From IMG/VR virus record IMGVR_UViG_3300031867_000008, positions 1-64,000 of that record: DNA of 64,000 nucleotides; one strand, given 5' to 3'. The DNA is from a virus. Lineage: Duplodnaviria > Caudoviricetes. The translations under genes and the position numbers were made by a program. Below are positions 28,494-55,695 of this stretch, in pieces; positions within the stretch are counted from its first letter, which is position 1, and every line of letters begins with the position of its first letter. The notes under the pieces were generated by a model. That model worked only from the letters and a program-made list of their open reading frames with translations. It did not search any database and was not told the origin of the DNA.

Positions 28494-28567
28494 GCGATTG
28501 TAGCTCAGTCGGTTAGAGCGACACTCTGATAAGGTGTAGGTCACAGGTTCGATTCCTGTTAATCGCA
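28494..28567 (+). tRNA. tRNA-Ile(GAT), CCA not encoded
   Basis: Acceptor GCGATTG/TAATCGC, D arm GCTC/GAGC, anticodon loop CT-GAT-AA, T arm ACAGG-TTCGATT-CCTGT; followed by CTA. Confidence 0.92.
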
Positions 28568-44197: not shown

Positions 44198-47100
44198 ATG
44201 AATTATATTATTGATGTAAAAGCGCAATTGTTAAATAATGGTGGTAATTTAAAAACTCAATATATGGCGGTCAAAAAGGATATTGAACGTCAAGTAATAA
44301 ATGTCAAGGCTGTATTAGACCCGAACGAGTTGTCTTTGAAAGCTATTCAAAAGCAATTGAACGATCAGAAATTGACTTTGAATATTGCGAACGTTGAGTT
44401 TAATCAGAGTGCGACAAGATCTTCAATAGACAAAACTGCATCGACTATATCCAACCAATTGTCAAAAGCCATGTCAACGATGAATGTTACTGGCTTTAAT
44501 AAAGGAAATTATTCAAGTTTGTTAAGGCAAATGGGTTTGGATGATGATTCTATTAAAAAAGCCACTGAGAGCGTTCAAAAACTTGGAATCACAATAACCA
44601 AAATATCGGGAACAGATTATGGTACAGATGCTAAAGGTAACAATACAATATCTGCGATAATACAAGGCGAAGATAAATTAGGTAGAGTTGTCACTCTAAG
44701 TCAAAAAATAAAAGTGGCAATGGATGAAAGCGGAAATGAGCTAATTGATTTTTCAAATAAGGTAATAAATGTTACTGACAACATTAAACAGCAAGCACAA
44801 GCACAAGAAAGGGCAAACAAGGCTTATGTTCGGCAAAAGAAGTTAATTGATGATGCTGCGGCTTCTGCAAAAGAAATGTGGGCTGCTCAGAACAGAAACA
44901 ACCCTATTAAAGATGTAACTAATAATTCTTTACCGATCAATGGAGTTTCTTCTTTATCCGCTGATTATGATAAGATAACACCTAAAACCAAAGAATTTGT
45001 TGAAGCTTATAACGAATGGGTCAAAATTATTCGTACAGCAAATGATGAACTCAAAACGCAAGGTAAAATTAGCTCAGAAACGGAACTTGCTCTTAGAAGT
45101 GCCGAAAAAGCGGCTATCACTCTTAGTCGAGATGTTACTAAGGAACGTTCTACACAAACCGATTTTAGAAGTAAAGATGTTTCTGCCGAGGTTGAAAAGG
45201 CTAAGACTCAACTTGTCACCTTTGAAAGAGAATTAGAACAAGTTGGAATGACATTAGATGACCTTAGAAATAAGAATGGACAAACATTAAGGGAAGTTCT
45301 TAACAATGTTTCTGATTCTAATAGTTTTTCTGAATACTTAAATCAGCTTGGCATTGCAAAGGCAAAACTTGAAGATGTAAAAAAGGAACAGCAATACTTA
45401 GCTAATCAAAAAGTTTTAGACACTAACTTTACAAACACAAGCGTTGAACTTGACAATCTTGTGAAAAAAATAAAAGAGTTGGATATAGATGAATCCAAAC
45501 TCACTTATTCTACTAAAGATTTGTATGAATCGTTCGACAGTATATCTGATACCAAAGGTTTGCAGGCGTTGAAGTCGATGATTTCTCAGACTACAAAAGA
45601 AGTCAACGAACAACAAAAAGCGTTTGAGGTCGAAAAGGCTAAAATCGGAGAACTTGTTAAGCTTCAAGAACAGATCACTTCTCAGCAAACTAAAATAGCT
45701 AATGCTGAATTGTCAGGCAAAAATCATAATGACATTGACATTATGAAGAATAAGCTTGAAGAATTGGAAGTAACTTATGAAAAGTTAGTTACTGAATTTG
45801 TAAGTAACCCTCTGTTTCTCAAATTAACAACTTCTGATTTAGAACCCTTGAATAATGCCAGTGGTAATAACGAATATGTAAACAACATTCTTAATGCTAA
45901 AAAGCTAGAAGAAGCATGGTATCAAGAATTATTATCAAAACGGAAAGAAATCAATTCCGAAGTACTTGAAGAACTTCGGTTAATGACGAACATTTCCCTA
46001 TACGACAAAGAAGAAGTACAACGTTTATCTGGTAGTATAATTCCTAAGCTTGTTGAGGAAGAAAGAGTTCTCCAAGAAATAGCAAAGAGTGAATTAACTG
46101 AAACTCAGTTTAAAGAAGTTGAGAATAGACTGCATAAAGATACTTTGGAGATGCTTAAAAAAAGACTTGGGTTAATGGATTCTATTCAAAAAACTCAGGC
46201 AAAAGAAGCAGATTCGATGCTTTCCGATGTTAATAAGAATACCAATAAAGCATCTAATTCATTAACAAATACTAAAGATATTGAGATTTTATCTTCTGAA
46301 TATTCTAAGCTTGTTGAGATCATAAAAAAATTTAAAAGCGAAGAAGATTTCTCTTTACTTGTTCCAAACCAAAGAGAAGCAACCGCAGCAATAGAAAATT
46401 ATAAAAATTTGATTTCAACTCTTTTAAACGCTGAAAGCAAATTTAAATCTGTTGGAAACAGTTTAGAACAGTTGGACAAACAAACTTCTGGCGGTGTGTT
46501 CTCAGCTAATTCTACCGATAAAGGTGTTATTGCTTTAAATGAAAAAATAGAAATATTGAAGAATAACTATCAAGGTTTAATGGCTGAGTTTAATGACGTT
46601 GGTGCAACAAATGAGGTTATTCAAGGATTTGACAATCTTGCAAAAGAGATTGATTCTACTTCACAAAAAGCGAATGAATTAAATAAAACTTTCAGAAGTA
46701 CCAGAACTGAAACAACTTTAATTAGTCAAAAACAATCCCTTAACAAAAGCATTGAAACTTGGTTAAAGAATAACACTAAGGCTTCGGAAGCTATGAAACA
46801 ATCCATGAAAGCCTTGCAAGTTCAAATCGAGTCTGCTGATAATCAAGGTTTAAAAAATCTGAGAAATGAGTTTAAGAGACTTAAAGATGTTGCTGATGCC
46901 ACGGGTCAGACTGGTATGAAGGCACTTGATAATTTTAAAGAAAAAATCGGAAAGTTTTCAAGTTGGTTTGGCGTATCTCAACTTATTATGGGAGCAGTCA
47001 ATGATACCAAAGAAGCTATCGTGACCCTTAAAGAAGTTGATTCAATACTGACTGAGATAAGCAAGACCTCAGATATGTCTGAGGAATCGTTGAAACGATT

Positions 47101-47647
47101 GGGAACTACCGCTTTTGAATCAGCTAATCAATATGGTGTTACTGTTCAATCTTTTTTAACTGGTGTACAAGAAATGTCAAGAGCTGGTTATCAAGATGCG
47201 GAAGGAATGGCTAATCTGTCTATTCTTGCACAAGCAGCAGGAGATATGACCGAAGAAGTTGCTGACAAATACTTGATCGCTACTGATGCAGCCTATAAGT
47301 TTAATGGCAGTATTGATGATTTAGGTAAAGTTCTCGGGGGACAGAACCAAATCACAAACCGATACGCAATTTCAATGACTGACATGGCTTCTGCTACACA
47401 AGAAGCTGCGAGTATGGCTGCTAATTATGGTGTGTCTATTGAACAATTATCAGCACTTATAACAACTGCTGTAGCTTCAACAAGACAAAGTGGTTCGGAA
47501 GTTGGTAATGCTCTTTCGACATTATTTGTAAACCTTTCTGATACAACAAACAAAGAAAGAATGAAAGCATTTGATACATTAGGTGTATCAGTTTACAAGT
47601 TCGTTGATGGTGCGCAAAAGCTGAAAACACCAATTGAATTACTCGAT
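44198..47647 (+). CDS. tail tape measure protein, exon 1 (1150 aa)
   Basis: Coiled-coil; TMP core motifs EMSRAG, AYK, RQSGSEVGNAL; breaks at TPIELLD. Confidence 0.9.
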
Positions 47648-48173
47648 TAGAATTTCGGCGCATACTCGTGACTTTAGTCGTGAGTTAGCCGAAACAATAG
47701 TTAGTGTATAGAGAAATCTGTACATAGTGGCGAGAAATCGTCCAATAAAGAAACTTAATTGCTGGAATACCGTAAAGCTATTTGTACTACAACGTAGCAC
47801 CGAAAAGGTACAAGCGTGAACGTTGCGAAAGCAGAAAGAAACAAATAGATGGCATAAGGTTAAATCCTAAGTGCTTCTACAAGAAATTGGTAATCAGCAG
47901 CGAAGCTCCGAATAGGAGAACGTTCAACGACTATCCCTCCTGAGGGGAGTACAACCAAGCGGTTGGAAATGGTTTCGCCGTAATGGGTAATGCCAACGGA
48001 TAAGATATAGTCTGTGCTTTGCCGAAAGGTAAAGAAGTTCATAAGAGAACTGCATAGGAATAGCGAACCTATGTGAACGACAACCTCTAAAACGGTTAAA
48101 TCGTAGGGTGATAGATATTAACCTATTGCTTTACATATGTTAGAAAAAAATAATAATTTTTGAAGGAAATACC

Positions 48174-48202
48174 TTGACTTTCTGAAATACATATGTTATA
48201 AT
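48174..48202 (+). promoter_or_regulatory. internal promoter for tnpA-tnpB
   Basis: TTGACT-17 nt-TATAAT with TG extension. Confidence 0.7.
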
Positions 48203-48221
48203 ATATATAGAGGTGAAAACT

Positions 48222-48623
48222 ATGAAATTAACATATGGCAGAGGTTATGTATATTCAATTCAGTATCATATTGTTTGGTGTGTAAAATACCGAAGAAAAG
48301 TTCTTGTTGGAGATGTTGAAAAGTCATTATATGAATTACTTAATAAAATAGCAGAAGAAAATGACTTTCAAATTATAGAATGTAATGGAGAAGCAGACCA
48401 TATTCATTTGCTCATAGACTGCTCACCACAACATTATATTCCTGATATGTTAAAAGCATTAAAGGGAGTTTCAGCAAGGCTACTTATGAAGCAGTATGGT
48501 GATGAATTGAAGTCAAAATTATGGGGCGGTCATTTATGGAATCCGAGTTATTATATAGCAACGGTTTCCGAGAATACCGAATCTCAAATAAGACAATACA
48601 TACAAAATCAGAAAGAGAGGTGA
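48222..48623 (+). CDS. tnpA: IS200/IS605 Y1 transposase
   Basis: YHIVWCVKYRR, DHIH (HUH), LWNPSYY, QYIQNQ catalytic Tyr. Confidence 0.95.
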   Translation: MKLTYGRGYVYSIQYHIVWCVKYRRKVLVGDVEKSLYELLNKIAEENDFQIIECNGEADHIHLLIDCSPQHYIPDMLKALKGVSARLLMKQYGDELKSKLWGGHLWNPSYYIATVSENTESQIRQYIQNQKER

Positions 48624-48627
48624 TATT

Positions 48628-49725
48628 ATGGAGAAAGCGTATAAGTTTAGGTTATATCCTAATAAGGAGCAACAGATTCTTTTGGCAAAGACTTTTGGTT
48701 GCACACGCTTTGTTTATAATTATTATCTCGACAAAAGGATAACTGCTTATAAAACTGATAAAACTACATTAAGTGCTTACGATTGTATAAGAGATTTGAC
48801 TTCTTTAAAGAAAGAGTATGAATGGCTTAAAGAACCTGATAAGTGTGCATTGCAGAATACGCTAAAAGATTTGGATAGTGCATACAAAGGATTCTTTAAG
48901 TCAAGCAAAGGCTTTCCCAAGTTTAAATCAAAGAAAACACATAGATATTCATATAGAACTTCTTATACAAATAACAATATACAATTCTTAGGTAACTCAA
49001 TCAAACTACCTAAACTTGGTAAGGTTAAAATCAGAGATAAGCAGATTCCACAGGGTAGGATTCTTAATGCTACAATATCTCAAACACCTTCTGGTAAATA
49101 CTATTGTTCATTATGTTGTACAGATGTAACAGTAGAACCTTTTGAAAAGACTGGAAGTGTAGTTGGTATTGACTTAGGTATTAAAGAATTTGTAATAACG
49201 TCTGATAATGAACACATTGAAAATCCTAAATATTTAGCAAAATCTTTAAAGAAACTCGCTCGGTTACAACGTCAACTTTCTCGAAAAACAAGAGGTAGTA
49301 ATCGTTGGAATAAGGCAAGAATAAAGGTTGCTAAGTGTCAGGAACAAATTGCAAATCAAAGAACAGATTTCTTACACAAACTATCTACAAGACTTGTAAA
49401 GGAATATGATGTTATTAGTCTTGAAGATTTAAATGTAAGCGGTATGCTTAAAAATCATAAACTTGCAAGAAGTGTTTCTGATGTGTCGTGGTCGCAGTTT
49501 ACTACTATGTTACAATACAAAGCTAATTGGTACGGCAAGGATATTATCAAAATAGATAGATTCTTTGCGAGTAGCCAGTTATGCAATGTGTGTGGCTATA
49601 AGAACACTGAGACTAAGGATTTAAGTGTTAGGTCGTGGGTGTGTCCCGTGTGTGGTACTTCTCACGACAGAGATGTTAATGCTTCAATAAATATATTGAA
49701 CGAAGGACTAAAACAAATAGTCTAA
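48628..49725 (+). CDS. tnpB: RNA-guided nuclease TnpB
   Basis: KAYKFRLYP, GIDLG, LEDL, CNVCG/CPVCG zinc finger, DRDVNA; RuvC D-E-D intact. Confidence 0.95.
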   Translation: MEKAYKFRLYPNKEQQILLAKTFGCTRFVYNYYLDKRITAYKTDKTTLSAYDCIRDLTSLKKEYEWLKEPDKCALQNTLKDLDSAYKGFFKSSKGFPKFKSKKTHRYSYRTSYTNNNIQFLGNSIKLPKLGKVKIRDKQIPQGRILNATISQTPSGKYYCSLCCTDVTVEPFEKTGSVVGIDLGIKEFVITSDNEHIENPKYLAKSLKKLARLQRQLSRKTRGSNRWNKARIKVAKCQEQIANQRTDFLHKLSTRLVKEYDVISLEDLNVSGMLKNHKLARSVSDVSWSQFTTMLQYKANWYGKDIIKIDRFFASSQLCNVCGYKNTETKDLSVRSWVCPVCGTSHDRDVNASINILNEGLKQIV

Positions 49726-49826
49726 CATATGTAAAGCGGTAGGAACTATCGTGTTAGCTCGTGGAGAAAGTAGGTTACGAAATCTATGAAACGAGAACCC
49801 TACGACTTTAGTCGTGGGAGGTTCAG

Positions 49827-50222
49827 GAATTGGCAACTGTATTCAATAGACTTGAAGAAGGCGATCCAAATAGAGCTTTACTCTTAAATGAAATTGGTGG
49901 CAAGCACCATGCGAACACACTTGCTGCTATCCTTTCCGATTGGCAGAAAATGGATTCAATAATGAATACATATTATAGCGGTTTTGGATCGGCTGAGATC
50001 GAAGCTGCCAAAAGTGCCAATAACCTACAAGGAAGTCTTAATAAACTAAACAACTCGTTCACCGATTTGGTTCAAAATGTTGTCAATACCGATTTTCTCA
50101 CAACACTTGTTCAAGGAGTTAATGACCTAACAAACGGAATAGATTTTCTTGTTGAAAAAATAGGTGTAATTCCAACAGTGTTAAGCGGAGTTGGAATAGG
50201 CGCATTAGTTAAAAACGGCGGT
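49827..50222 (+). CDS. tail tape measure protein, exon 2 (132 aa)
   Basis: ELATVF...IGGKHHANTLAAIL...SANNLQGSLNKL...LVKNGG. Confidence 0.85.
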
Positions 50223-50762
50223 AGGGTTAAATGTTTACCCTCAACAATATGCCGCCATCTGAATTGTTTCTTGCTGATAGGCAAGTTTTTATTTCAGACT
50301 TTAATGATACCTAAAACAAAGGCATACGTTAAAGTAAAACGGTAATTTTATTACCCTGTCTGTATGAGATTTGTACAAATCCAACTCATACAAGGCAGAG
50401 CCTCAATATGCGAGGAAGTTGGTACAACGTAACTACTCCCCTACTCTGGTGACAGTTTAGGGTCGTAAAAATGTTACGCTCCAATGGTTCGCAGGGATAG
50501 GACTTTTATGAATAAAAAGCCAAGCCCTCACGGTAGCGACAACAGGCGGTTATGGTTTAAGATGAAACGCTTACTATAATAATATGCGCTCGGAACGCTT
50601 CAATATAAGAAGTCAGATTTGTGGTATAGACTTATCCTATACCTTTATACAAGTGGAACTCTCACTGTAAGAGTTGATAAGAATACAGTTAACCAATCAA
50701 CAAACAGTTGACATTTCAGATTTTATCCTCTTTAGGCGGGGGGGGGGGGGGATGTCACGTAG

Positions 50763-51191
50763 TTATAATATTTGTTTTGTTATATACGTTGTTGCTACAG
50801 CTATGGCAATTTTTAGTATCGACTCACAGCTTTTGGTTTCAATATTATTACACTTCGTCTTAATCTTGTTCCATAGTTTTTGATTTTTAGCCGAATCAAT
50901 AAAAACATAACCATTTTGTGTAATTTGTCCAATAATAAAACAAAGAACATGATTGGTATTTTTGTTGTATTGATAGCGGTGGGTCACAATATACCCTGCT
51001 TCTTTGAGCTGTATTAGGGTATATTTAATTTCTTCTTGTGAATATTTTTCTAATAAAGATTCATCTGAATAAATAATTCTCCAACTCAATGGGCGAGGTA
51101 ACGCTTCTCTATCAGGTATGCAAAGATTTTTGTCAATACACAACATAATGTCTTTAATTTTTTCTTCATTCATTGAAGTAAAATTTGTCAT
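50763..51191 (-). CDS. DUF2513-like winged-helix protein (intron passenger)
   Basis: IKDIML...YSQEEIKY...QLKEAGY...ITQNGYVFID...W-x-K-x-K pattern. Confidence 0.65.
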   Translation of the reverse strand: MTNFTSMNEEKIKDIMLCIDKNLCIPDREALPRPLSWRIIYSDESLLEKYSQEEIKYTLIQLKEAGYIVTHRYQYNKNTNHVLCFIIGQITQNGYVFIDSAKNQKLWNKIKTKCNNIETKSCESILKIAIAVATTYITKQIL

Positions 51192-51231
51192 GTTATCATC
51201 CCCCTATATAAATAAACAGAAAGGAAGTATT

Positions 51232-51591
51232 ATGAATACCTTTTATGAAAATGCTAAGATAGCAACGGAAATCATGTACAATATGTTTTATTGTAACAAT
51301 TGTACTTCTGACGATATGTCTCAAATAATCAAGCTATTATCTACGTCAAATGTTGATTTGCTAAGACTTTTTATAGACGATATTTATTTGGGAGAAGTTT
51401 ATGATGAGTATGGTAATTACATGAATCAGGAAATTCTTAACAAAGGCGAAGTTGATTCTACATGGTTAAGAAAATGCTTACAGAATAAATACAAATGTTG
51501 CCAAGATGTTTTAAATGAAACAAAACAGTGTGAGATTGATGGTTTTGTTGAAAAGTCACATTCTATTTATAATAACGCTTTGAACGATTAG
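51232..51591 (+). CDS. hypothetical protein (intron passenger)
   Basis: GAAAGGA RBS before ATG at 51232. Confidence 0.6.
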   Translation: MNTFYENAKIATEIMYNMFYCNNCTSDDMSQIIKLLSTSNVDLLRLFIDDIYLGEVYDEYGNYMNQEILNKGEVDSTWLRKCLQNKYKCCQDVLNETKQCEIDGFVEKSHSIYNNALND

Positions 51592-51716
51592 AAGTGCTGT
51601 TCATTTAAAACCGCATTTAGAAAAAGTTTAGAAGCGAAACATGATTGCAGAGTGCTACTTTGTTTATTCGTATTGTTTAGTTGTTTTACTTAACATTTAA
51701 TTGGACTTATATTTTT

Positions 51717-52067
51717 TTATCTGATAAATTGTGAATAATGTGAATAAATAGCAGCAATCGTTGTTCCAAAAATTAAAACTAATATTACAATAGTTAATAC
51801 AGAAGATATGATGGATAAAAATAAACAATAGTCTCCAACACATTTCCTATACCAATCTTCTTTTGTAAAAAGAATGACAAAAGCTAATAATCCTACGGGA
51901 GGAAAAAGAAAACTAATAATGTACAATATTTTGTAATCTTTTTTGGATTTCTTAAACGCTTGGTTAGAATCAAGCAAGTCATTTACATAACACCCGCAAC
52001 AAGGACAAACGTAAGCATTTTCGGATAATGTTTCATAACCACATTCAGGACAATCAATTAAAGCCAT
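51717..52067 (-). CDS. zinc-ribbon membrane protein (intron passenger)
   Basis: MALIDCPECG...CPCCG then two hydrophobic helices; AGGGG RBS. Confidence 0.75.
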   Translation of the reverse strand: MALIDCPECGYETLSENAYVCPCCGCYVNDLLDSNQAFKKSKKDYKILYIISFLFPPVGLLAFVILFTKEDWYRKCVGDYCLFLSIISSVLTIVILVLIFGTTIAAIYSHYSQFIR

Positions 52068-52097
52068 ACAACAATCCCCTTTCAATTGTTTTATTTT

Positions 52098-52126
52098 ATT
52101 ATATCACATATTGGCTTCAAAGTCAA
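52098..52126 (-). promoter_or_regulatory. leftward promoter for passenger gene, inside the intron
   Basis: TTGACT-17 nt-TATAAT with TG extension. Confidence 0.7.
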
Positions 52127-52173
52127 GCGTTAGAAAAATCTATTTATAACTTTTCCACGAAGTTTATAGTTTG

Positions 52174-55100
52174 ATATTAGCTGATATAGGTTTTTCTTCT
52201 AAGGTATTAAAAGAAATACCCAAGGAATTTAAAAATTCCAGTGAATACGTTGATATTCTTGCAAATTCTGTAAAAGCATTGACTGCTCGTCAGCAAGCGT
52301 TAGTTTTATCAAGTAATGGAGTTTCTGATGTGATGATTAGAGAAGTGTTGGAAACTAATGAGGTCACTAAGTCAGAGATAGATGCTATTATGGCTAAACG
52401 TGCAATGACAGCCACTCAGGCTTCTCTAACCAAAAGTCAATTGGCAGAAATCATAACTGTTCAAACTGGAAATGCAGAAAAAACTACTGCTATTATGACA
52501 GAACTTGGATTAGCGGAGGCAAAAAATGAAGATGTGATAGCAACTGAAATGTTATCTGCCTCAACAGTTAAGGCTGCTTCGGCACAACAAGGATTAAATG
52601 CTGAACAAACACAAGCGATGTTACTAAACATGGGTTTGGCAAAAAAAACTGACAAAATATCAAATTTCTTTAGTGGTTTGGCGACAACTATTAGAGATGG
52701 AGCAAAGGCTTTGTTTAGTTTTGTTAAGGCACATCCTGTTGCAATAGCTGCTACCGCAGCAATAGCTGTATCGGTAGGTGTAATATCACATCAGATAAAA
52801 GAAAATGAGCAACAAATAAAACAAGCCATTGAAACCGCAGAAGAATTAAAAGAATCCGTACATACTGTTGACGAGTATGTTTCTAAAATAAAAGACCTTC
52901 GAGAGTCTTTAGATTCGGGGAGCAATAGTCTCGATGAGCAGAAAAATATTCGTGCTGAATTATTGTCCATACAAGAGGAAATGATCGGCAAGTATGGAGA
53001 TGAAATCAGACAACTTGATCTGATGACCGATTCGGTAATCAATTTAGAAAATGCTATCGAAGGATATTCTGCGAGAAAAGAAGCACAGGACTGGCTTATA
53101 AATAATGCCGAAGCGGTTGAAAAGGCTGATAATACAGTTCAGGCGTTTGGTGTTGATTATATTGACAATCTCAAAAATGAAATCGATGAAATTAAAGCGT
53201 TAAAAACACAATCTGTTGATGATTTTAATGTTGCTGTGTGGAATCTTGGAGTTCAATTAGGAAAAGATTTTTCTGAATATATTGTAAAAACAAAAGATGA
53301 AATAAAAACAAAACAAGATGAGTTAATAGATACATTGCAGACTAATTATAATGCCTTGACAGGAGAAAACTCAGGGTTAAAACTGATTCCTGAATGGATG
53401 GAGGAAGGCTCTAATTATTGGGCGAATCTTCTTGGTGATATGGATATTTTAGGTTCAGTTGACGAGGATATAGAAATATTTAAACAATCGGGTTATTACA
53501 AACTCATTACCGATATGCCTGAAATGTATGACCGATTAACAAATGCTGTTAAGAATTATAATGATGCCGTAACAAGCGGTGATACTTCCAAACAAAGAAC
53601 TGCCTTAGAAGAACTTGAAAATATATTCAATGATTCTAAGAACATTGATGATAATGCTATAAAATGGTACATTCAAAATGAACTGTCAAGCTATATAAAT
53701 GTAGCTGATAAATTAGACGAGGAATTGCAACAGCGACTTGCTCGTTTTAATACTTCTCTTAGCGTAGCGCAGTCTTTACATAAAAGAGACGAATATGGTG
53801 CTGGATTGTTCAAACTTAGCGAGGATGAACAAGGCGGGTATACATTTAAGCCCAATGACAGTTTTGTTGAAATTATTCCGAAACTTAATGACAACGAATT
53901 TGAAACATTGTTAAAGCTTGTACAAGGTGAAATCGGAGAAAATATTGATTGGTTGACTTATCAACCTGAATCTTTAACTTCTCTCGTCAAAGCAATGGCT
54001 TCGACTGCTGACGGTTTCGATGTTGCTTCGTGGTATGAAAGTAATGAGGTTAAAGACATCACTGATTCTTTGGGTAAATTGCAATCTGCTTATGCTTCGT
54101 TAGAAAAAGGCGATTCTATTGATTTGGACGATCTGATTGAAAGTTATCCCGAATTAGCAAAGTATACTGATAATGTTGAAGAACTCAAAAAACATATTCA
54201 AGAACTTGCTAATTCAAAAGTCACACCCTTGATTGAAAACCTACAATCTTTAATAAACGGTGCTATTGCGAATGGTGATAACGAAACAGCAAAAGTGATA
54301 CAGAATATCATTGATTTACTTTATAATGAAGCTGACGTAACAGCCAAAGTTAAAGACGAATCCTCTAAAACTAACGATGTTTATAAGGCACAAAAAGAAA
54401 CTCTTAAACAACAATTGTCTTATATCAAAAACAACATCAATAAAGAAGAAGAAAGAAAAGAAGCTGCACAGGAAACTCTTGACACTCTTGAAAAGCAAAA
54501 AGACAGTTTGGAGAAAACTCTTGACAAATATGACACGGCAGTAAGCACTATCACAAGCTACATTGATGAGCAAATTAACTCTCTCGAAGAACAGAAAACG
54601 GCAATCGAGGACACTTATTCGCAACAGATTGAGGCTCTTGAAAGTGAAGCCGAAGAACGTGAAAAAGTCAACGACTTGATTGAAAAACAAATCGCTCTTG
54701 AAAAGGCGAAAGAAACACAAGTCAGAGTATACGATAAAGAACGCGGCGGTTTCAGAATAGAAACTGATAAATCTGTTGTTGCACAAGCACAGAAGGAATA
54801 TGATGATGCTGTAAGAGAATCCGAAATTGATCGTCTTGAAAAAGAACGTGATAACGCCCTCAAACCTTACGATGATGAAATCAAGTCATTAGAGAGCTAT
54901 AAAAACTCTTGGGAGCAGGCGGCTAAATCGTATCAGAAAATGCAAGATGAAATGACTACTGCGGCTGTCTTTGGTTCTGATTGGCGAAGCATGGCTATAT
55001 CGCAAGACACTAACGCTATTCAAGGATTTGTCGATAATTATTCTGCCACAGCTAATAGACTTCATAATATTGTCGAACCTCAAATCGAACAGACTAAAAA

Positions 55101-55695
55101 TGAAATTGATACTATTGATAAGCAAATTTCTAAATGGAAAGAACTTCAAACTCAACAGCAATCGTACCTTGACTTTTTCAAAAATTATGGTACACAAATG
55201 TCTCAGGCTATTGGAGAACAAGCGAAAGCTGTTAAAGACTTTGTAAATGCTATAAACGGAATTGCTAAGAGTAATGGTATTGTTGCAGATAAGATTTGGG
55301 ACTTGGTGCAGAAATTTTACGTTCCAGATTATATTCCTGCGTTCGCCAATGGTGGTGTAAGCAGTTCAACAGGACTTGCTATGCTTCACGGAACAAAGCA
55401 GAAATCAGAAGTGACTTTTAACGCAGAAGATGCTAAGAAACTTTATGATATGATACACGGCAGAAGTTCCGCACAGCTAACTAACACCGTTGCAAGGAAT
55501 ATTGTGGATTCTGCGATTCAAACCACAAGAGAAAATGCAAGCATTGTAAATAATAATCGTCCAACAAACAACGAATATACTTGGGTTATAAACGAGCCTA
55601 AGTTTAGTAGTGCTGATGATTACAGGGCGTTCTCTGAACACATGGACAGATATGTAAGAGAAGCCAACATGAATCGTTTGGTTGGTAAGAAATAA
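52174..55695 (+). CDS. tail tape measure protein, exon 3 (1173 aa; spliced product about 2455 aa)
   Basis: Long coiled coil; C-terminal FANGG...AMLHGT...E motif of tape-measure ends. Confidence 0.88.
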   Translation: MLADIGFSSKVLKEIPKEFKNSSEYVDILANSVKALTARQQALVLSSNGVSDVMIREVLETNEVTKSEIDAIMAKRAMTATQASLTKSQLAEIITVQTGNAEKTTAIMTELGLAEAKNEDVIATEMLSASTVKAASAQQGLNAEQTQAMLLNMGLAKKTDKISNFFSGLATTIRDGAKALFSFVKAHPVAIAATAAIAVSVGVISHQIKENEQQIKQAIETAEELKESVHTVDEYVSKIKDLRESLDSGSNSLDEQKNIRAELLSIQEEMIGKYGDEIRQLDLMTDSVINLENAIEGYSARKEAQDWLINNAEAVEKADNTVQAFGVDYIDNLKNEIDEIKALKTQSVDDFNVAVWNLGVQLGKDFSEYIVKTKDEIKTKQDELIDTLQTNYNALTGENSGLKLIPEWMEEGSNYWANLLGDMDILGSVDEDIEIFKQSGYYKLITDMPEMYDRLTNAVKNYNDAVTSGDTSKQRTALEELENIFNDSKNIDDNAIKWYIQNELSSYINVADKLDEELQQRLARFNTSLSVAQSLHKRDEYGAGLFKLSEDEQGGYTFKPNDSFVEIIPKLNDNEFETLLKLVQGEIGENIDWLTYQPESLTSLVKAMASTADGFDVASWYESNEVKDITDSLGKLQSAYASLEKGDSIDLDDLIESYPELAKYTDNVEELKKHIQELANSKVTPLIENLQSLINGAIANGDNETAKVIQNIIDLLYNEADVTAKVKDESSKTNDVYKAQKETLKQQLSYIKNNINKEEERKEAAQETLDTLEKQKDSLEKTLDKYDTAVSTITSYIDEQINSLEEQKTAIEDTYSQQIEALESEAEEREKVNDLIEKQIALEKAKETQVRVYDKERGGFRIETDKSVVAQAQKEYDDAVRESEIDRLEKERDNALKPYDDEIKSLESYKNSWEQAAKSYQKMQDEMTTAAVFGSDWRSMAISQDTNAIQGFVDNYSATANRLHNIVEPQIEQTKNEIDTIDKQISKWKELQTQQQSYLDFFKNYGTQMSQAIGEQAKAVKDFVNAINGIAKSNGIVADKIWDLVQKFYVPDYIPAFANGGVSSSTGLAMLHGTKQKSEVTFNAEDAKKLYDMIHGRSSAQLTNTVARNIVDSAIQTTRENASIVNNNRPTNNEYTWVINEPKFSSADDYRAFSEHMDRYVREANMNRLVGKK

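What the first reader, a model, noticed from the sequence alone, without database searches (positions are those of the whole stretch)
50690..52160. Intron used as a cargo bay: three passenger genes hidden in the P9 loop
Seen: a DUF2513-like gene (-), a hypothetical gene (+) and a zinc-ribbon membrane gene (-) with its own consensus promoter (52098-52126); I recognise no HNH, GIY-YIG, LAGLIDADG or RT motifs in them. Known: group I introns normally carry only endonucleases or IS genes. Inference: splicing creates a neutral landing pad inside an essential gene for moron-type accessory genes (superinfection exclusion, defence, toxin-antitoxin), and their antisense transcription could damp tape-measure expression in the carrier state.
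Basis: inference. Interest (0 to 1): 0.75.

Follow-up and report, generated by a model that had tools for sequence, protein, structure and literature searches.

The report
Phage intron carrying swappable accessory genes
A self-splicing (group I type) intron in the tail tape-measure gene of a 141-kb phage carries three small non-nuclease genes, and related phages keep the same ribozyme with one or two genes, so the intron acts as a harmless slot for extra genes.

Summary
Observation confirmed; interpretation partly supported. Window 50223-52173 is a 1,951-nt group I-type intron between tape-measure exon 2 (49827-50222) and exon 3 (52174-55695).

Evidence for the intron:
- P1 has a U.G pair at the 5' splice site and covaries with the exon in four exon contexts.
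- P10, P9.0 and a terminal G are present.
- The P3-P8 core shows 25 base pairs with compensatory changes.
- Joining the exons keeps the frame in six loci.
- Rfam's group I model does not detect it, so it is a divergent subtype.

Cargo: DUF2513 (50763-51191, -), an unknown 119-aa ORF (51232-51591, +) and a zinc-ribbon two-TM protein (51717-52067, -). The last has an 11/12 sigma-70 promoter at 52098-52126. No nuclease, defence or transposase family matched.

Ribozyme and 3' tail are constant (86-92% identity), while the cargo varies: one gene in L007, two in L010, three here.
- The zinc-ribbon gene and its antisense promoter are a constant resident.
- DUF2513+ORF2 lies in a 1.09-kb segment present only here. 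The pair recurs at 95.6% identity next to other genes elsewhere.

The functions of the cargo and any antisense damping of the tape-measure gene remain untested. A G14 tract at the left junction leaves a small risk of an assembly artefact. Earlier notes of this scan report the same layout in at least seven other genomes. I found no paper describing it.

The parts
49827..50222 (+). Tape-measure exon 2 (132 codons), ending ...ALVKNGG
   Evidence: The intron-less site-1 allele in L007 fixes the start at 49827. The end is set by P1 and the frame. The product matches tape-measure proteins.
50223..52173 (+). Group I-type intron, 1,951 nt
   Evidence: P1, P10, P9.0 and a terminal G are present. The structure covaries. 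The junction is in frame. There is no Rfam hit.
50217..50256 (+). P1: exon GGCGGU (50217-22) pairs with guide GCCGCC (50251-56), with U.G at the splice site. A P1 extension hairpin lies at 50223-27/50237-41.
   Evidence: Seen in the fold. P1 covaries with the exon in L011/L016 (AUCGGU/GCCGAU), L012/L014 (GUCGGU/GCCGAC) and L013 (GAUGGU/GCCAUC).
50246..50250 (+). Guide segment AAUAU, which pairs with the first bases of exon 3 (AUAUU, 52174-78) to form P10
   Evidence: Read from the sequence. The same pairing is present in L007, L010 and L011, where it is 6 bp.
50259..50398 (+). Peripheral helices P2, P2.1 and two further hairpins. The window alone has a 15-nt tip in P2.1 (50308-50322).
   Evidence: Compensatory changes occur in L010. 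The P2.1 tip is absent in L005, L006, L007, L009 and L010.
50400..50592 (+). Catalytic core. P3 400-403/544-547; P4 410-414/488-492; P5 and extensions 418-485; P6 493-528; P7 531-538/587-592; P8 549-580.
   Evidence: 94.3% of cells are paired, against 29-42% with slid partners. 25 pairs change on both sides and 0 of 500 shuffles reach this. P3 has 3 of 4 pairs compensatory. P7 is invariant, with C-G, a bulge, then G-C.
50593..50675 (+). 5' strand of P9.0 (GAAC, 50593-96), then hairpins P9 (50597-601/609-613), P9.1 (50623-29/37-43) and P9.2 (50657-62/70-75)
   Evidence: P9.0 pairs with GUUU at 52169-72. L007 has AAAC/GUUU and L012 has GAAC/GUUC. P9.1 has 3 compensatory pairs.
50727..51815 (.). 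Window-specific 1.09-kb segment, replaced by 112 nt in L007
   Evidence: blastn of the window against L007; alignment of the boundaries.
50738..50751 (+). G14 homopolymer tract at the left edge of the window-specific segment
   Evidence: Read from the sequence. It is absent in L006, L007 and L010.
50763..51191 (-). DUF2513-family gene, 142 aa
   Evidence: Pfam E 1.5e-14; phrog_585 E 4e-18. dN/dS is about 0.13 against L017. Relatives lie in the early or lysogeny regions of temperate Strep and Staph phages.
51232..51591 (+). ORF2, 119 aa, no known family, predicted all-helical
   Evidence: No family matched. A 90% identical homologue, P0156, lies on L017/L018. dN/dS is about 0.32. The AF2 model has low confidence.
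51717..52067 (-). Zinc-ribbon protein with two TM segments, 116 aa: the resident gene of this intron lineage
   Evidence: Homologues P0153 (69% identity) and P0154 (62%) occupy the same slot in L007-L009 and L010. Hydropathy and dN/dS of about 0.1.
52098..52126 (-). Near-consensus sigma-70 promoter (TTGACT-17-TATAAT, TG-extended) for the antisense unit, inside the intron's 3' tail
   Evidence: Conserved in L007 (11/12), L010 (12/12) and L011 (12/12).
52148..52173 (+). 3'-terminal element: a hairpin AACUU/AAGUU with loop UUCCACG, then UAUA, GUUU (3' strand of P9.0) and the terminal G at 52173
   Evidence: Conserved in L007. The stem covaries in L010 (GUUGCU/AGCAAC). The loop UUCCAC is complementary to GUGGAA at 50653-58, but both are invariant, so this pairing is untested.
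52174..55695 (+). Tape-measure exon 3, starting ILADIGF...
   Evidence: ORF. The joined frame is open. The C-terminal region matches the PMBT24 tape-measure protein.

Best explanation
Window 50223-52173 is a self-splicing group I-type intron of a divergent subtype. It sits at a conserved hotspot of the tape-measure gene (...KN.G|I...). Its ribozyme occupies the first ~500 nt.

The last ~90 nt carry four things: P9.0, the terminal G, a hairpin and, on the opposite strand, a near-consensus host-type promoter. Everything between is looped out and removed from the late mRNA by splicing. DNA inserted there therefore costs the tape-measure protein nothing.

This lineage permanently houses one antisense gene under that promoter, encoding a small zinc-ribbon protein with two membrane segments. 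In this phage a further 1.09-kb segment has been added or swapped in. It holds a two-gene module: DUF2513 (probably a winged-helix DNA binder, antisense) and a small unknown ORF (sense).

Shown here:
- intron anatomy and covariation
- frame restoration
- cargo turnover among relatives
- promoter conservation
- purifying selection on all three genes
- absence of any recognisable nuclease

Inferred:
- that the RNA really splices
- that the antisense unit is read by host RNA polymerase independently of late transcription (in a lysogen or early in infection)
- that the genes are accessory (moron-like) functions
For: Splice sites:
- P1 and P10 were read and the fold.
- P1 covaries with four different exon sequences.
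- The joined exons are open at a codon boundary in the window, L007, L010, L011, L012 and L014.
- L011's junction FKNIG|IFKTIEDE matches LKNNGFIKTETDD of the intact protein P0013.

Structure:
- Core: 94.3% paired against 29-42% for slid partners, 25 pairs with compensatory changes, 0 of 500 shuffles.
- Whole 5' domain: 96.2% paired against 34-42%, 22 compensatory pairs.

Cargo turnover:
- Intron length is 1,951 nt here, 959 in L007, 1,371 in L010, 909 in L011 and 765 in L012.
- The DUF2513+ORF2 module recurs at 95.6% identity with different right-hand neighbours on L017/L018.

Other points:
- The promoter scores 11-12 of 12 in four members.
- No nuclease or defence family matched.
- dN/dS is below 1 for all three genes.
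- The phage has a large serine recombinase and tyrosine integrases, so a temperate life is plausible.
Against: - Rfam RF00028 gives no hit here or in any family member, even at E<=10 or E<=1. It does find the neighbouring intron at 47700-48034.
- No transcript data exist. Splicing and promoter activity are inferred.
- No intron-less allele of this site was found among close relatives.
- P7 and P4 are invariant, so they carry no covariation evidence.
- No clear intrinsic terminator follows the antisense genes in the window.
- A G14 tract lies exactly at the left junction of the extra module, and the right-junction sequence was not found in any other viral contig. The three-gene arrangement therefore rests on one assembly.
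- The functions of all three proteins are unknown. The AF2 models were unusable.
Confidence: 0.75

Rival explanations
1. The antisense zinc-ribbon protein is not an accessory gene. It is the intron's own mobility or maintenance factor, for example a new kind of homing protein or a partner of a nuclease supplied in trans. That would explain why such genes always accompany introns at this tape-measure site.
For: - An antisense zinc-ribbon gene under a consensus promoter is present in every member examined that has an antisense cargo gene: window, L007-L010, L011, L012/L014, L013/L015, L022 and L027.
- A second family of such genes (C-end ...C.NCGYKW) is shared by introns with different ribozyme cores (L011 against L022, E 1e-9).
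- The intron occupies the same site in tape-measure proteins only 30-50% identical. About 107 of the 150 best homologues end there. That pattern suggests past homing.
Against: - The window's protein is mostly two membrane segments.
- The other family keeps only its cysteines. No conserved His, Asp, Glu or Asn that could be catalytic is present.
- No nuclease family matched.
- L016 and L020 carry other, sense-strand cargo instead.
Confidence: 0.1
2. The intron and its zinc-ribbon gene are real. The DUF2513+ORF2 segment (about 50727-51815) is placed there by a metagenome mis-assembly seeded by the G14 tract. Poly-G is a known artefact of two-colour sequencers.
For: - G14 lies exactly at the left junction.
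- The module occurs at 95.6% identity beside other genes on L017/L018.
- No second contig with the window's right junction was found.
Against: - A false insertion needs two wrong joins, and the right side has no homopolymer.
- The genome closes with terminal repeats.
- Other first-reader notes list several G/C tracts elsewhere in this genome (unchecked).
- Relatives show that cargo in this slot really does vary (L010 has a different second gene).
Confidence: 0.1
3. The insert does not splice. The tape-measure function is supplied by separate polypeptides, and the conserved RNA structure serves another role.
For: There is no Rfam hit. There are no transcript data. Gene callers list the pieces as separate ORFs.
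Against: - Exon 3 has no ribosome-binding site or ATG at the frame start.
- The guide sequence tracks exon changes.
- P10, P9.0 and the terminal G are conserved.
- The junction is always at a codon boundary and in frame.
- The helices follow the group I order, with the P3/P7 pseudoknot.
Confidence: 0.04

Closest known systems
Group I introns in tape-measure genes of Bacillus cereus-group prophages (TMP-IVS1, IVS2, IVS3; Tourasse and Kolsto 2008, PMC2504315)
   Same: Self-splicing introns inside the tape-measure gene of temperate Firmicute phages. They sit at conserved sites, some lack a complete homing endonuclease gene, and P1/P10 are adapted to the site.
   Different: Those introns are IA1/IA2 types and are described as having an endonuclease gene or none. 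No self-promoted antisense non-nuclease genes or cargo turnover were reported there. The present ribozyme is not recognised by Rfam.
IStrons (group I intron fused to an IS200/605 element; CdISt1, BcISt1; bioRxiv 10.1101/2023.11.20.567912)
   Same: The ribozyme lies at the 5' end and a large non-ribozyme payload lies before a short 3' end that completes splicing. One sits 400 nt upstream in the same gene (47648-49826).
   Different: An IStron's payload is its own transposition machinery (TnpA/TnpB and guide RNA). Here there is no transposase, no subterminal IS hairpins and no TnpB. The payload is unrelated small genes, mostly antisense with their own promoter.
Phage group I introns with an ORF in a peripheral loop (T4 td, nrdB, nrdD/sunY; SPO1 DNA polymerase intron) - from my own knowledge
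   Same: The ORF is looped out of P6, P8 or P9 extensions. The intron lies in an essential phage gene and splices from the mRNA.
   Different: Those ORFs are homing endonucleases (GIY-YIG, HNH) on the sense strand. Here no nuclease is recognisable and two of the three genes are antisense.
Morons of temperate phages (extra genes with their own promoter set among late genes, e.g. lambda bor/lom, HK97) - from my own knowledge
   Same: Small accessory genes with a host-type promoter, present or absent among otherwise similar phages, embedded in the late structural region.
   Different: Classical morons sit between genes. Here they sit inside a gene and rely on RNA splicing to be harmless. A terminator was not found in the window.
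rps3 housed in the group I intron of fungal mitochondrial rnl, and antisense endonuclease genes in nuclear rDNA group I introns - from my own knowledge
   Same: These are precedents for a non-nuclease gene, and for an opposite-strand gene, inside a group I intron.
   Different: They are eukaryotic organelle or nuclear cases with a single fixed gene, no variable multi-gene payload and no bacterial promoter.

Membership tests
Group I intron | P1 helix between the end of the 5' exon and an internal guide sequence, with a U.G pair at the splice site | tested here: met
   GGCGGU/GCCGCC with U50222.G50251. It covaries with the exon in L011, L012, L013 and L016.
Group I intron | Terminal G at the 3' end, with P10 pairing to the 3' exon and P9.0 next to it | tested here: met
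   G52173. P10 is AUAUU/AAUAU, adjacent to P1. P9.0 is GAAC/GUUU, with A-U in L007 and G-C in L012.
Group I intron | Core helices in the order P3-P4-P5-P6-P7-P3'-P8-P7', with the P3/P7 pseudoknot | tested here: met
   59 pairs, 94.3% paired and 25 with compensatory changes. P3 (144 nt apart) has 3 of 4 pairs compensatory. P8 has 7 of 11.
Group I intron | Guanosine-binding G-C pair in P7 next to a bulged nucleotide | tested here: inconclusive
   The pattern C50531-G50592, bulge 50532, G50533-C50591 fits and is invariant in 8 sequences. An extra bulged U50534 is unusual. An invariant helix gives no covariation test.
Group I intron | Match to the curated family model (Rfam RF00028) | tested here: not met
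   No hit at E<=10 on 651 nt or on 5 kb, and none in seven related loci at E<=1. The model does find other introns in the same sequences.
Group I intron | Self-splicing with guanosine in vitro, or ligated exons in vivo | not testable with these tools
   No transcript data are available.
IStron | IS200/605 or IS607 transposase genes (tnpA and/or tnpB) in the 3' part of the intron | tested here: not met
   None of the three proteins matches a transposase or TnpB family.
Mobile intron with homing endonuclease | Intron ORF of the LAGLIDADG, GIY-YIG, HNH, His-Cys box or PD-(D/E)xK family | tested here: not met
   No such family matched at E<=0.1. There were no matches to solved structures. The fold models were too poor to test by structure.
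Moron | Own promoter | tested here: met
   An 11/12 consensus with TG extension, conserved in relatives. Activity was not measured.
Moron | Own terminator | tested here: inconclusive
   No intrinsic terminator was found after the antisense genes in the window. L011 has a clear 10-bp one.
Moron | Present or absent among otherwise similar phages | tested here: met
   The DUF2513+ORF2 segment is present here and absent in L007, L009, L010 and L006.
Known anti-phage defence or toxin-antitoxin system | Match to a described defence protein family | tested here: not met
   PADLOC returned 0 families for all three proteins.

The most novel reading that the evidence does not exclude
This intron lineage is a dedicated carrier of accessory genes. 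The group I ribozyme provides a fitness-neutral slot inside an essential late gene. A built-in antisense host-type promoter in the 3' tail drives whatever is placed in that slot, and the payload is exchanged by recombination among phages. The intron would then persist because of what it carries, not through a homing endonuclease.
Probability: 0.45. Interest if true: 0.75.

Novelty: new variant of a known kind. Interest (0 to 1): 0.6.

Why it matters
Group I introns in phages are usually seen as selfish elements that spread through their homing endonuclease. Here the ribozyme is kept, with dozens of compensatory changes, while the place of the endonuclease is taken by a self-promoted backwards gene and by genes that come and go.

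If splicing and expression are confirmed, three things follow:
- Introns in essential structural genes can serve as hotspots for accessory genes.
- There is a reason for introns without nucleases to persist.
- Many 'split' tape-measure genes in metagenomes would be explained. About 107 of the 150 best homologues end at this very site.

It also points to two small zinc-ribbon protein families of unknown function that are tied to this site. A practical point follows too: Rfam's model misses this ribozyme subtype, so such introns are under-annotated.

Tried and rejected
- Rfam scans of the window, of 47500-52500 and of 50150-50800 gave nothing for this intron. A scan of seven related loci gave nothing either.
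- blastn of 49800-52400 against 50,697 phage records found no match.
- The search for related loci with exon 2 and with the exon 3 N-terminus in IMG/VR found no relative.
- A word-indexed protein search with DUF2513 returned only the protein itself.
- I considered a group II intron and rejected it by eye. There is no GUGYG start, no domain V-like hairpin in the 3' 90 nt and no RT.
- An intein is excluded because the cargo is on the opposite strand and the frame contains stops.
- Single-sequence AF2 models of ORF2 (pLDDT 49.5) and DUF2513 (pLDDT 42.2) were too poor for fold searches, so I made no structure comparison.
- Sequence search of PDB chains gave nothing below E 0.07.
- My first P7 register (G50532-C50591) failed in 6 of 8 sequences. 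I replaced it with G50533-C50591.
- The MFE helix GUGG/UCAC (50653-56/62-65) is not kept in L006 and L010. I replaced it with AACUCU/AGAGUU.
- A pairing AGAUUUU (50719-25) with AAAAUCU in the tail is not kept in L007, so I dropped it.
- My P9 coordinates were off by one, so helix 16 there is meaningless.
- A search for the right-junction sequence in IMG/VR found none. The L017 right flank is not elsewhere in this genome.
- Literature searches for non-nuclease or antisense cargo in phage group I introns found no such description. A search for DUF2513 found no functional paper.
Full report
**Setting**

The window is the first 64 kb of a 140,956-bp viral contig with direct terminal repeats. Its tail genes resemble those of SPbeta-like and large Clostridia/Enterocloster phages. 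The genome encodes a large serine recombinase and tyrosine integrases, so a temperate life is plausible.

The tape-measure gene is in three pieces:
- 44198-47647
- 49827-50222
- 52174-55695

The first gap holds an Rfam-confirmed group I ribozyme (47700-48034, 73.8 bits) followed by IS200/605 tnpA and tnpB. That is an IStron and the subject of another note. The finding given to me concerns the second gap.

**Observation**

- The minus-strand ORF 50763-51191 matches DUF2513 (E 1.5e-14) and phrog_585.
- The plus-strand ORF 51232-51591 has a good ribosome-binding site and no family in four libraries.
- The minus-strand ORF 51717-52067 has an N-terminal CPxCG...CPxCG zinc ribbon and two hydrophobic segments.

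The promoter at 52126->52098 is TTGACT-17-TATAAT with a TG extension. It is the best of 15 promoter-like sites in 2.7 kb. None of the proteins matches a homing-endonuclease, reverse-transcriptase, transposase or defence family.

All three are under purifying selection against their nearest relatives (dN/dS about 0.1, 0.3 and 0.13). They are real genes.

**Is the gap an intron?**

Rfam finds nothing here, even at E<=10 on a 651-nt slice. I therefore tested the group I features directly.

Splice-site features, read from the sequence and the fold:
- Exon 2 ends GGCGGU. This pairs with GCCGCC 29 nt downstream, placing a U.G pair at 50222|50223.
- The five bases just 5' of that guide (AAUAU) pair with AUAUU at 52174-78.
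- AUAUU follows a G (52173).
- Of the four G-preceded positions in the open stretch, this is the only junction that keeps the frame.
- The four bases before that G (GUUU) pair with GAAC right after P7 (P9.0).

A protein search with exon 2, and then with the zinc-ribbon protein, led to related loci. Searching for a conserved core motif found more.
- L005, L006, L007, L008, L009 and L010 came from the protein searches.
- L011-L016 and L027 came from the motif search.

Across these loci the exon end and the guide change together:

| Loci | Exon end / guide |
|---|---|
| window, L007, L010 | GGCGGU/GCCGCC |
| L011, L016 | AUCGGU/GCCGAU |
| L012, L014 | GUCGGU/GCCGAC |
| L013 | GAUGGU/GCCAUC |

All of them end ...GUUYG.

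Joining the predicted exons gives an open frame at a codon boundary in all six loci tested. The junction peptide is conserved...KN(G/I/V)G|I(L/F).... L011's junction FKNIG|IFKTIEDE lines up with LKNNGFIKTETDD in an uninterrupted 2,736-aa homologue, P0013.

**Core structure**

An alignment of eight core sequences (A4) fits the group I order P3-P4-P5-P6-P7-P3'-P8-P7', with the P3/P7 pseudoknot. The pair counts are:
- 94.3% of cells paired, against 29-42% when partners are slid by 1-3 columns
- 25 pairs changed on both sides
- none of 500 shuffles reaching the observed values
- three of the four pairs of P3, whose strands are 144 nt apart, changing compensatorily
- seven of eleven pairs of P8 doing the same

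P4, P6 and P7 are invariant. P7 reads C-G, bulge, G-C, extra bulged U, A-U, G-C, C-G, G-C. That is close to the canonical guanosine-binding helix rather than 'rewired'.

The whole 5' domain in five close relatives gives 96.2% paired against 34-42%, with 22 compensatory pairs.

I conclude with about 90% confidence that this is a functional group I-type intron of a subtype that RF00028 does not cover. A covariance model built from the core (R1) finds one copy in this genome. It also finds a weak relative in L020/L021 (37.8 bits).

**The cargo compared across relatives**

| Locus | Identity to window | Intron length | Cargo |
|---|---|---|---|
| window | - | 1,951 nt | DUF2513, ORF2, zinc-ribbon membrane gene |
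| L007 | 92% (exon 2 + ribozyme), 87% (3' part) | 959 nt | zinc-ribbon membrane gene only |
| L010 | 69% | 1,371 nt | zinc-ribbon membrane gene plus a second zinc-ribbon/TM gene, both antisense |
| L006 | 86% | incomplete | runs from the ribozyme into the 3' end of a zinc-ribbon homologue within ~100 nt |

- In L007 the window's 50727-51815 is replaced by 112 nt.
- L008 and L009 have the same layout as L007.
- L010's cargo is, L006's.
- The antisense promoter in the 3' tail is kept at 11-12 of 12 in L007, L010 and L011.

One correction is needed: the zinc-ribbon gene and its promoter are fixtures of the lineage, not passengers.

The DUF2513+ORF2 pair recurs at 95.6% identity on two short contigs (L017, L018). 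There the sequence to the right of ORF2 is different. The pair therefore behaves as a movable two-gene module.

DUF2513 relatives in temperate streptococcal and staphylococcal phages lie in the early or lysogeny region. In Javan118 the gene is on the repressor/integrase strand, inside the oppositely oriented early operon. That is typical of prophage-expressed accessory genes.

**Wider family**

More distant members share only the P3-P7 core (76-80% identity). These are L011, L012/L014, L013/L015, L016 and L027.
- They sit at the same protein site.
- Except for L016, they carry an antisense gene of another small double zinc-ribbon family (C-end ...C.NCGYKW), again under a consensus promoter.
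- The same protein family also occurs in L022, whose ribozyme is different and more canonical.
- Its only invariant residues are the cysteines and a few others, so it does not look like an HNH-type nuclease.

Other members carry sense-strand cargo:
- L016: an unknown 206-aa ORF
- L020: a DUF3800 gene

About 107 of the 150 best exon-2 homologues in a 1.8-billion-protein library end within 100 residues (mostly within about 40) of this site. The interruption is therefore common.

**Where the cargo sits**

It lies after P9.2 (50675) and before the last ~90 nt, so it is between the two strands of P9.0.
- In L011 a perfect 15-bp helix (AAAACUAUUGACAAA / UUUGUCAAUAGUUUU) closes the cargo loop.
- In the window a 7-bp pairing of 50594-600 with 52125-31 is possible. 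It changes compensatorily in L010. It competes with P9.0 and with a local hairpin, so I treat it as tentative.
- The loop UUCCAC of the 3' hairpin is complementary to GUGGAA at 50653-58. Both are invariant, so this pairing is untested.

**Mechanism, and what is inferred**

Shown:
- the anatomy of the intron
- covariation
- frame restoration
- cargo turnover
- promoter conservation
- selection on the genes

Inferred:
- Splicing removes the whole 1,951 nt from the late mRNA.
- The antisense unit is read by host RNA polymerase independently of late transcription.
- ORF2, on the sense strand, would be translated from the precursor or from the excised intron.
- The genes serve accessory roles.

Nothing supports a specific role such as exclusion, defence or toxin-antitoxin. 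Nothing tests the idea that antisense transcription damps the tape-measure gene.

**Caveats**

- A G14 tract lies exactly at the left edge of the window-specific segment (50738-50751).
- Poly-G is a known artefact of two-colour sequencers, and the arrangement rests on one assembly.
- I found no second contig with the right junction.
- A false insertion would need two wrong joins, so I give this about 10%.

**Comparison with what is known**

- Group I introns in tape-measure genes are published for Bacillus cereus-group prophages, some without a complete endonuclease gene (PMC2504315).
- IStrons show that a large payload before a short 3' end is compatible with splicing (bioRxiv 10.1101/2023.11.20.567912).
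- I found no paper describing self-promoted antisense non-nuclease genes, or cargo turnover, in phage group I introns.
- Earlier notes of this scan report the same layout in at least seven other genomes. Those are unchecked AI notes, and my evidence here is independent of them.

**Verdict**

This is a new variant of a known kind and is of moderate to high interest. The decisive missing piece is experimental proof of splicing and of antisense expression.

Noticed in passing
window 47648-49826: The first interruption of the tape-measure gene is an IStron: group I ribozyme at 47700-48034, tnpA at 48213-48623, tnpB at 48628-49725. L007 is an intron-less allele (TPIELLD|ELATVFN). It fixes the boundaries exactly: the exon ends at T47647 and the intron ends at G49826.
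   Followed up: partly
window 50738-50751: A run of 14 G lies just downstream of the DUF2513 stop, at the left junction of the window-specific segment. It is absent in relatives. It could be a true variable tract or a sequencing or assembly artefact.
   Followed up: partly
L011 3225-3713 (-), L012 1238-1558 (+), L013 7306-7644 (+), L022 7043-7594 (-), L027 3971-4483 (-): A second family of small double zinc-ribbon proteins (C-end CP.C.ST...C.NCGYKW) is always antisense in introns at the same tape-measure site. It occurs with two different ribozyme cores. No Pfam family matches and no conserved catalytic residues are present.
   Followed up: partly
L020/L021 6344-6513 and 6867-7601: A distant relative of the same ribozyme core (37.8 bits with model R1) follows a truncated tape-measure ORF. 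After it comes a sense-strand DUF3800 gene with its own promoter-like site. The downstream tape-measure half was not seen within the locus.
   Followed up: no
window 50308-50322: The tip of helix P2.1 has 15 extra nucleotides in the window. They are missing in L005, L006, L007, L009 and L010. This is a small indel in a peripheral loop of the ribozyme.
   Followed up: partly
one search hit list (P0004-P0151): About 107 of the 150 best homologues of exon 2 end within 100 residues of the exon 2 end. This suggests that introns or insertions at this site are widespread and that gene callers routinely split these tape-measure genes.
   Followed up: partly
L013 9308-10240 (-) and L015 1839-2771 (-): At the first intron site of a related tape-measure gene there is a 311-aa sense-strand ORF with an N-terminal zinc-finger motif and no significant Pfam family. 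It may be a homing endonuclease of an unrecognised type.
   Followed up: no
L010 4487-4726: L010 has about 550 nt between its exon 1 and exon 2 equivalents. A short blastn match links it to the window's first ribozyme (47825-47875), there are no IS genes, and Rfam gives no hit. It may be an IS-free version of the site-1 intron.
   Followed up: no
window 28494-28567: A tRNA gene (Rfam tRNA, 72.9 bits) lies among the phage genes.
   Followed up: no
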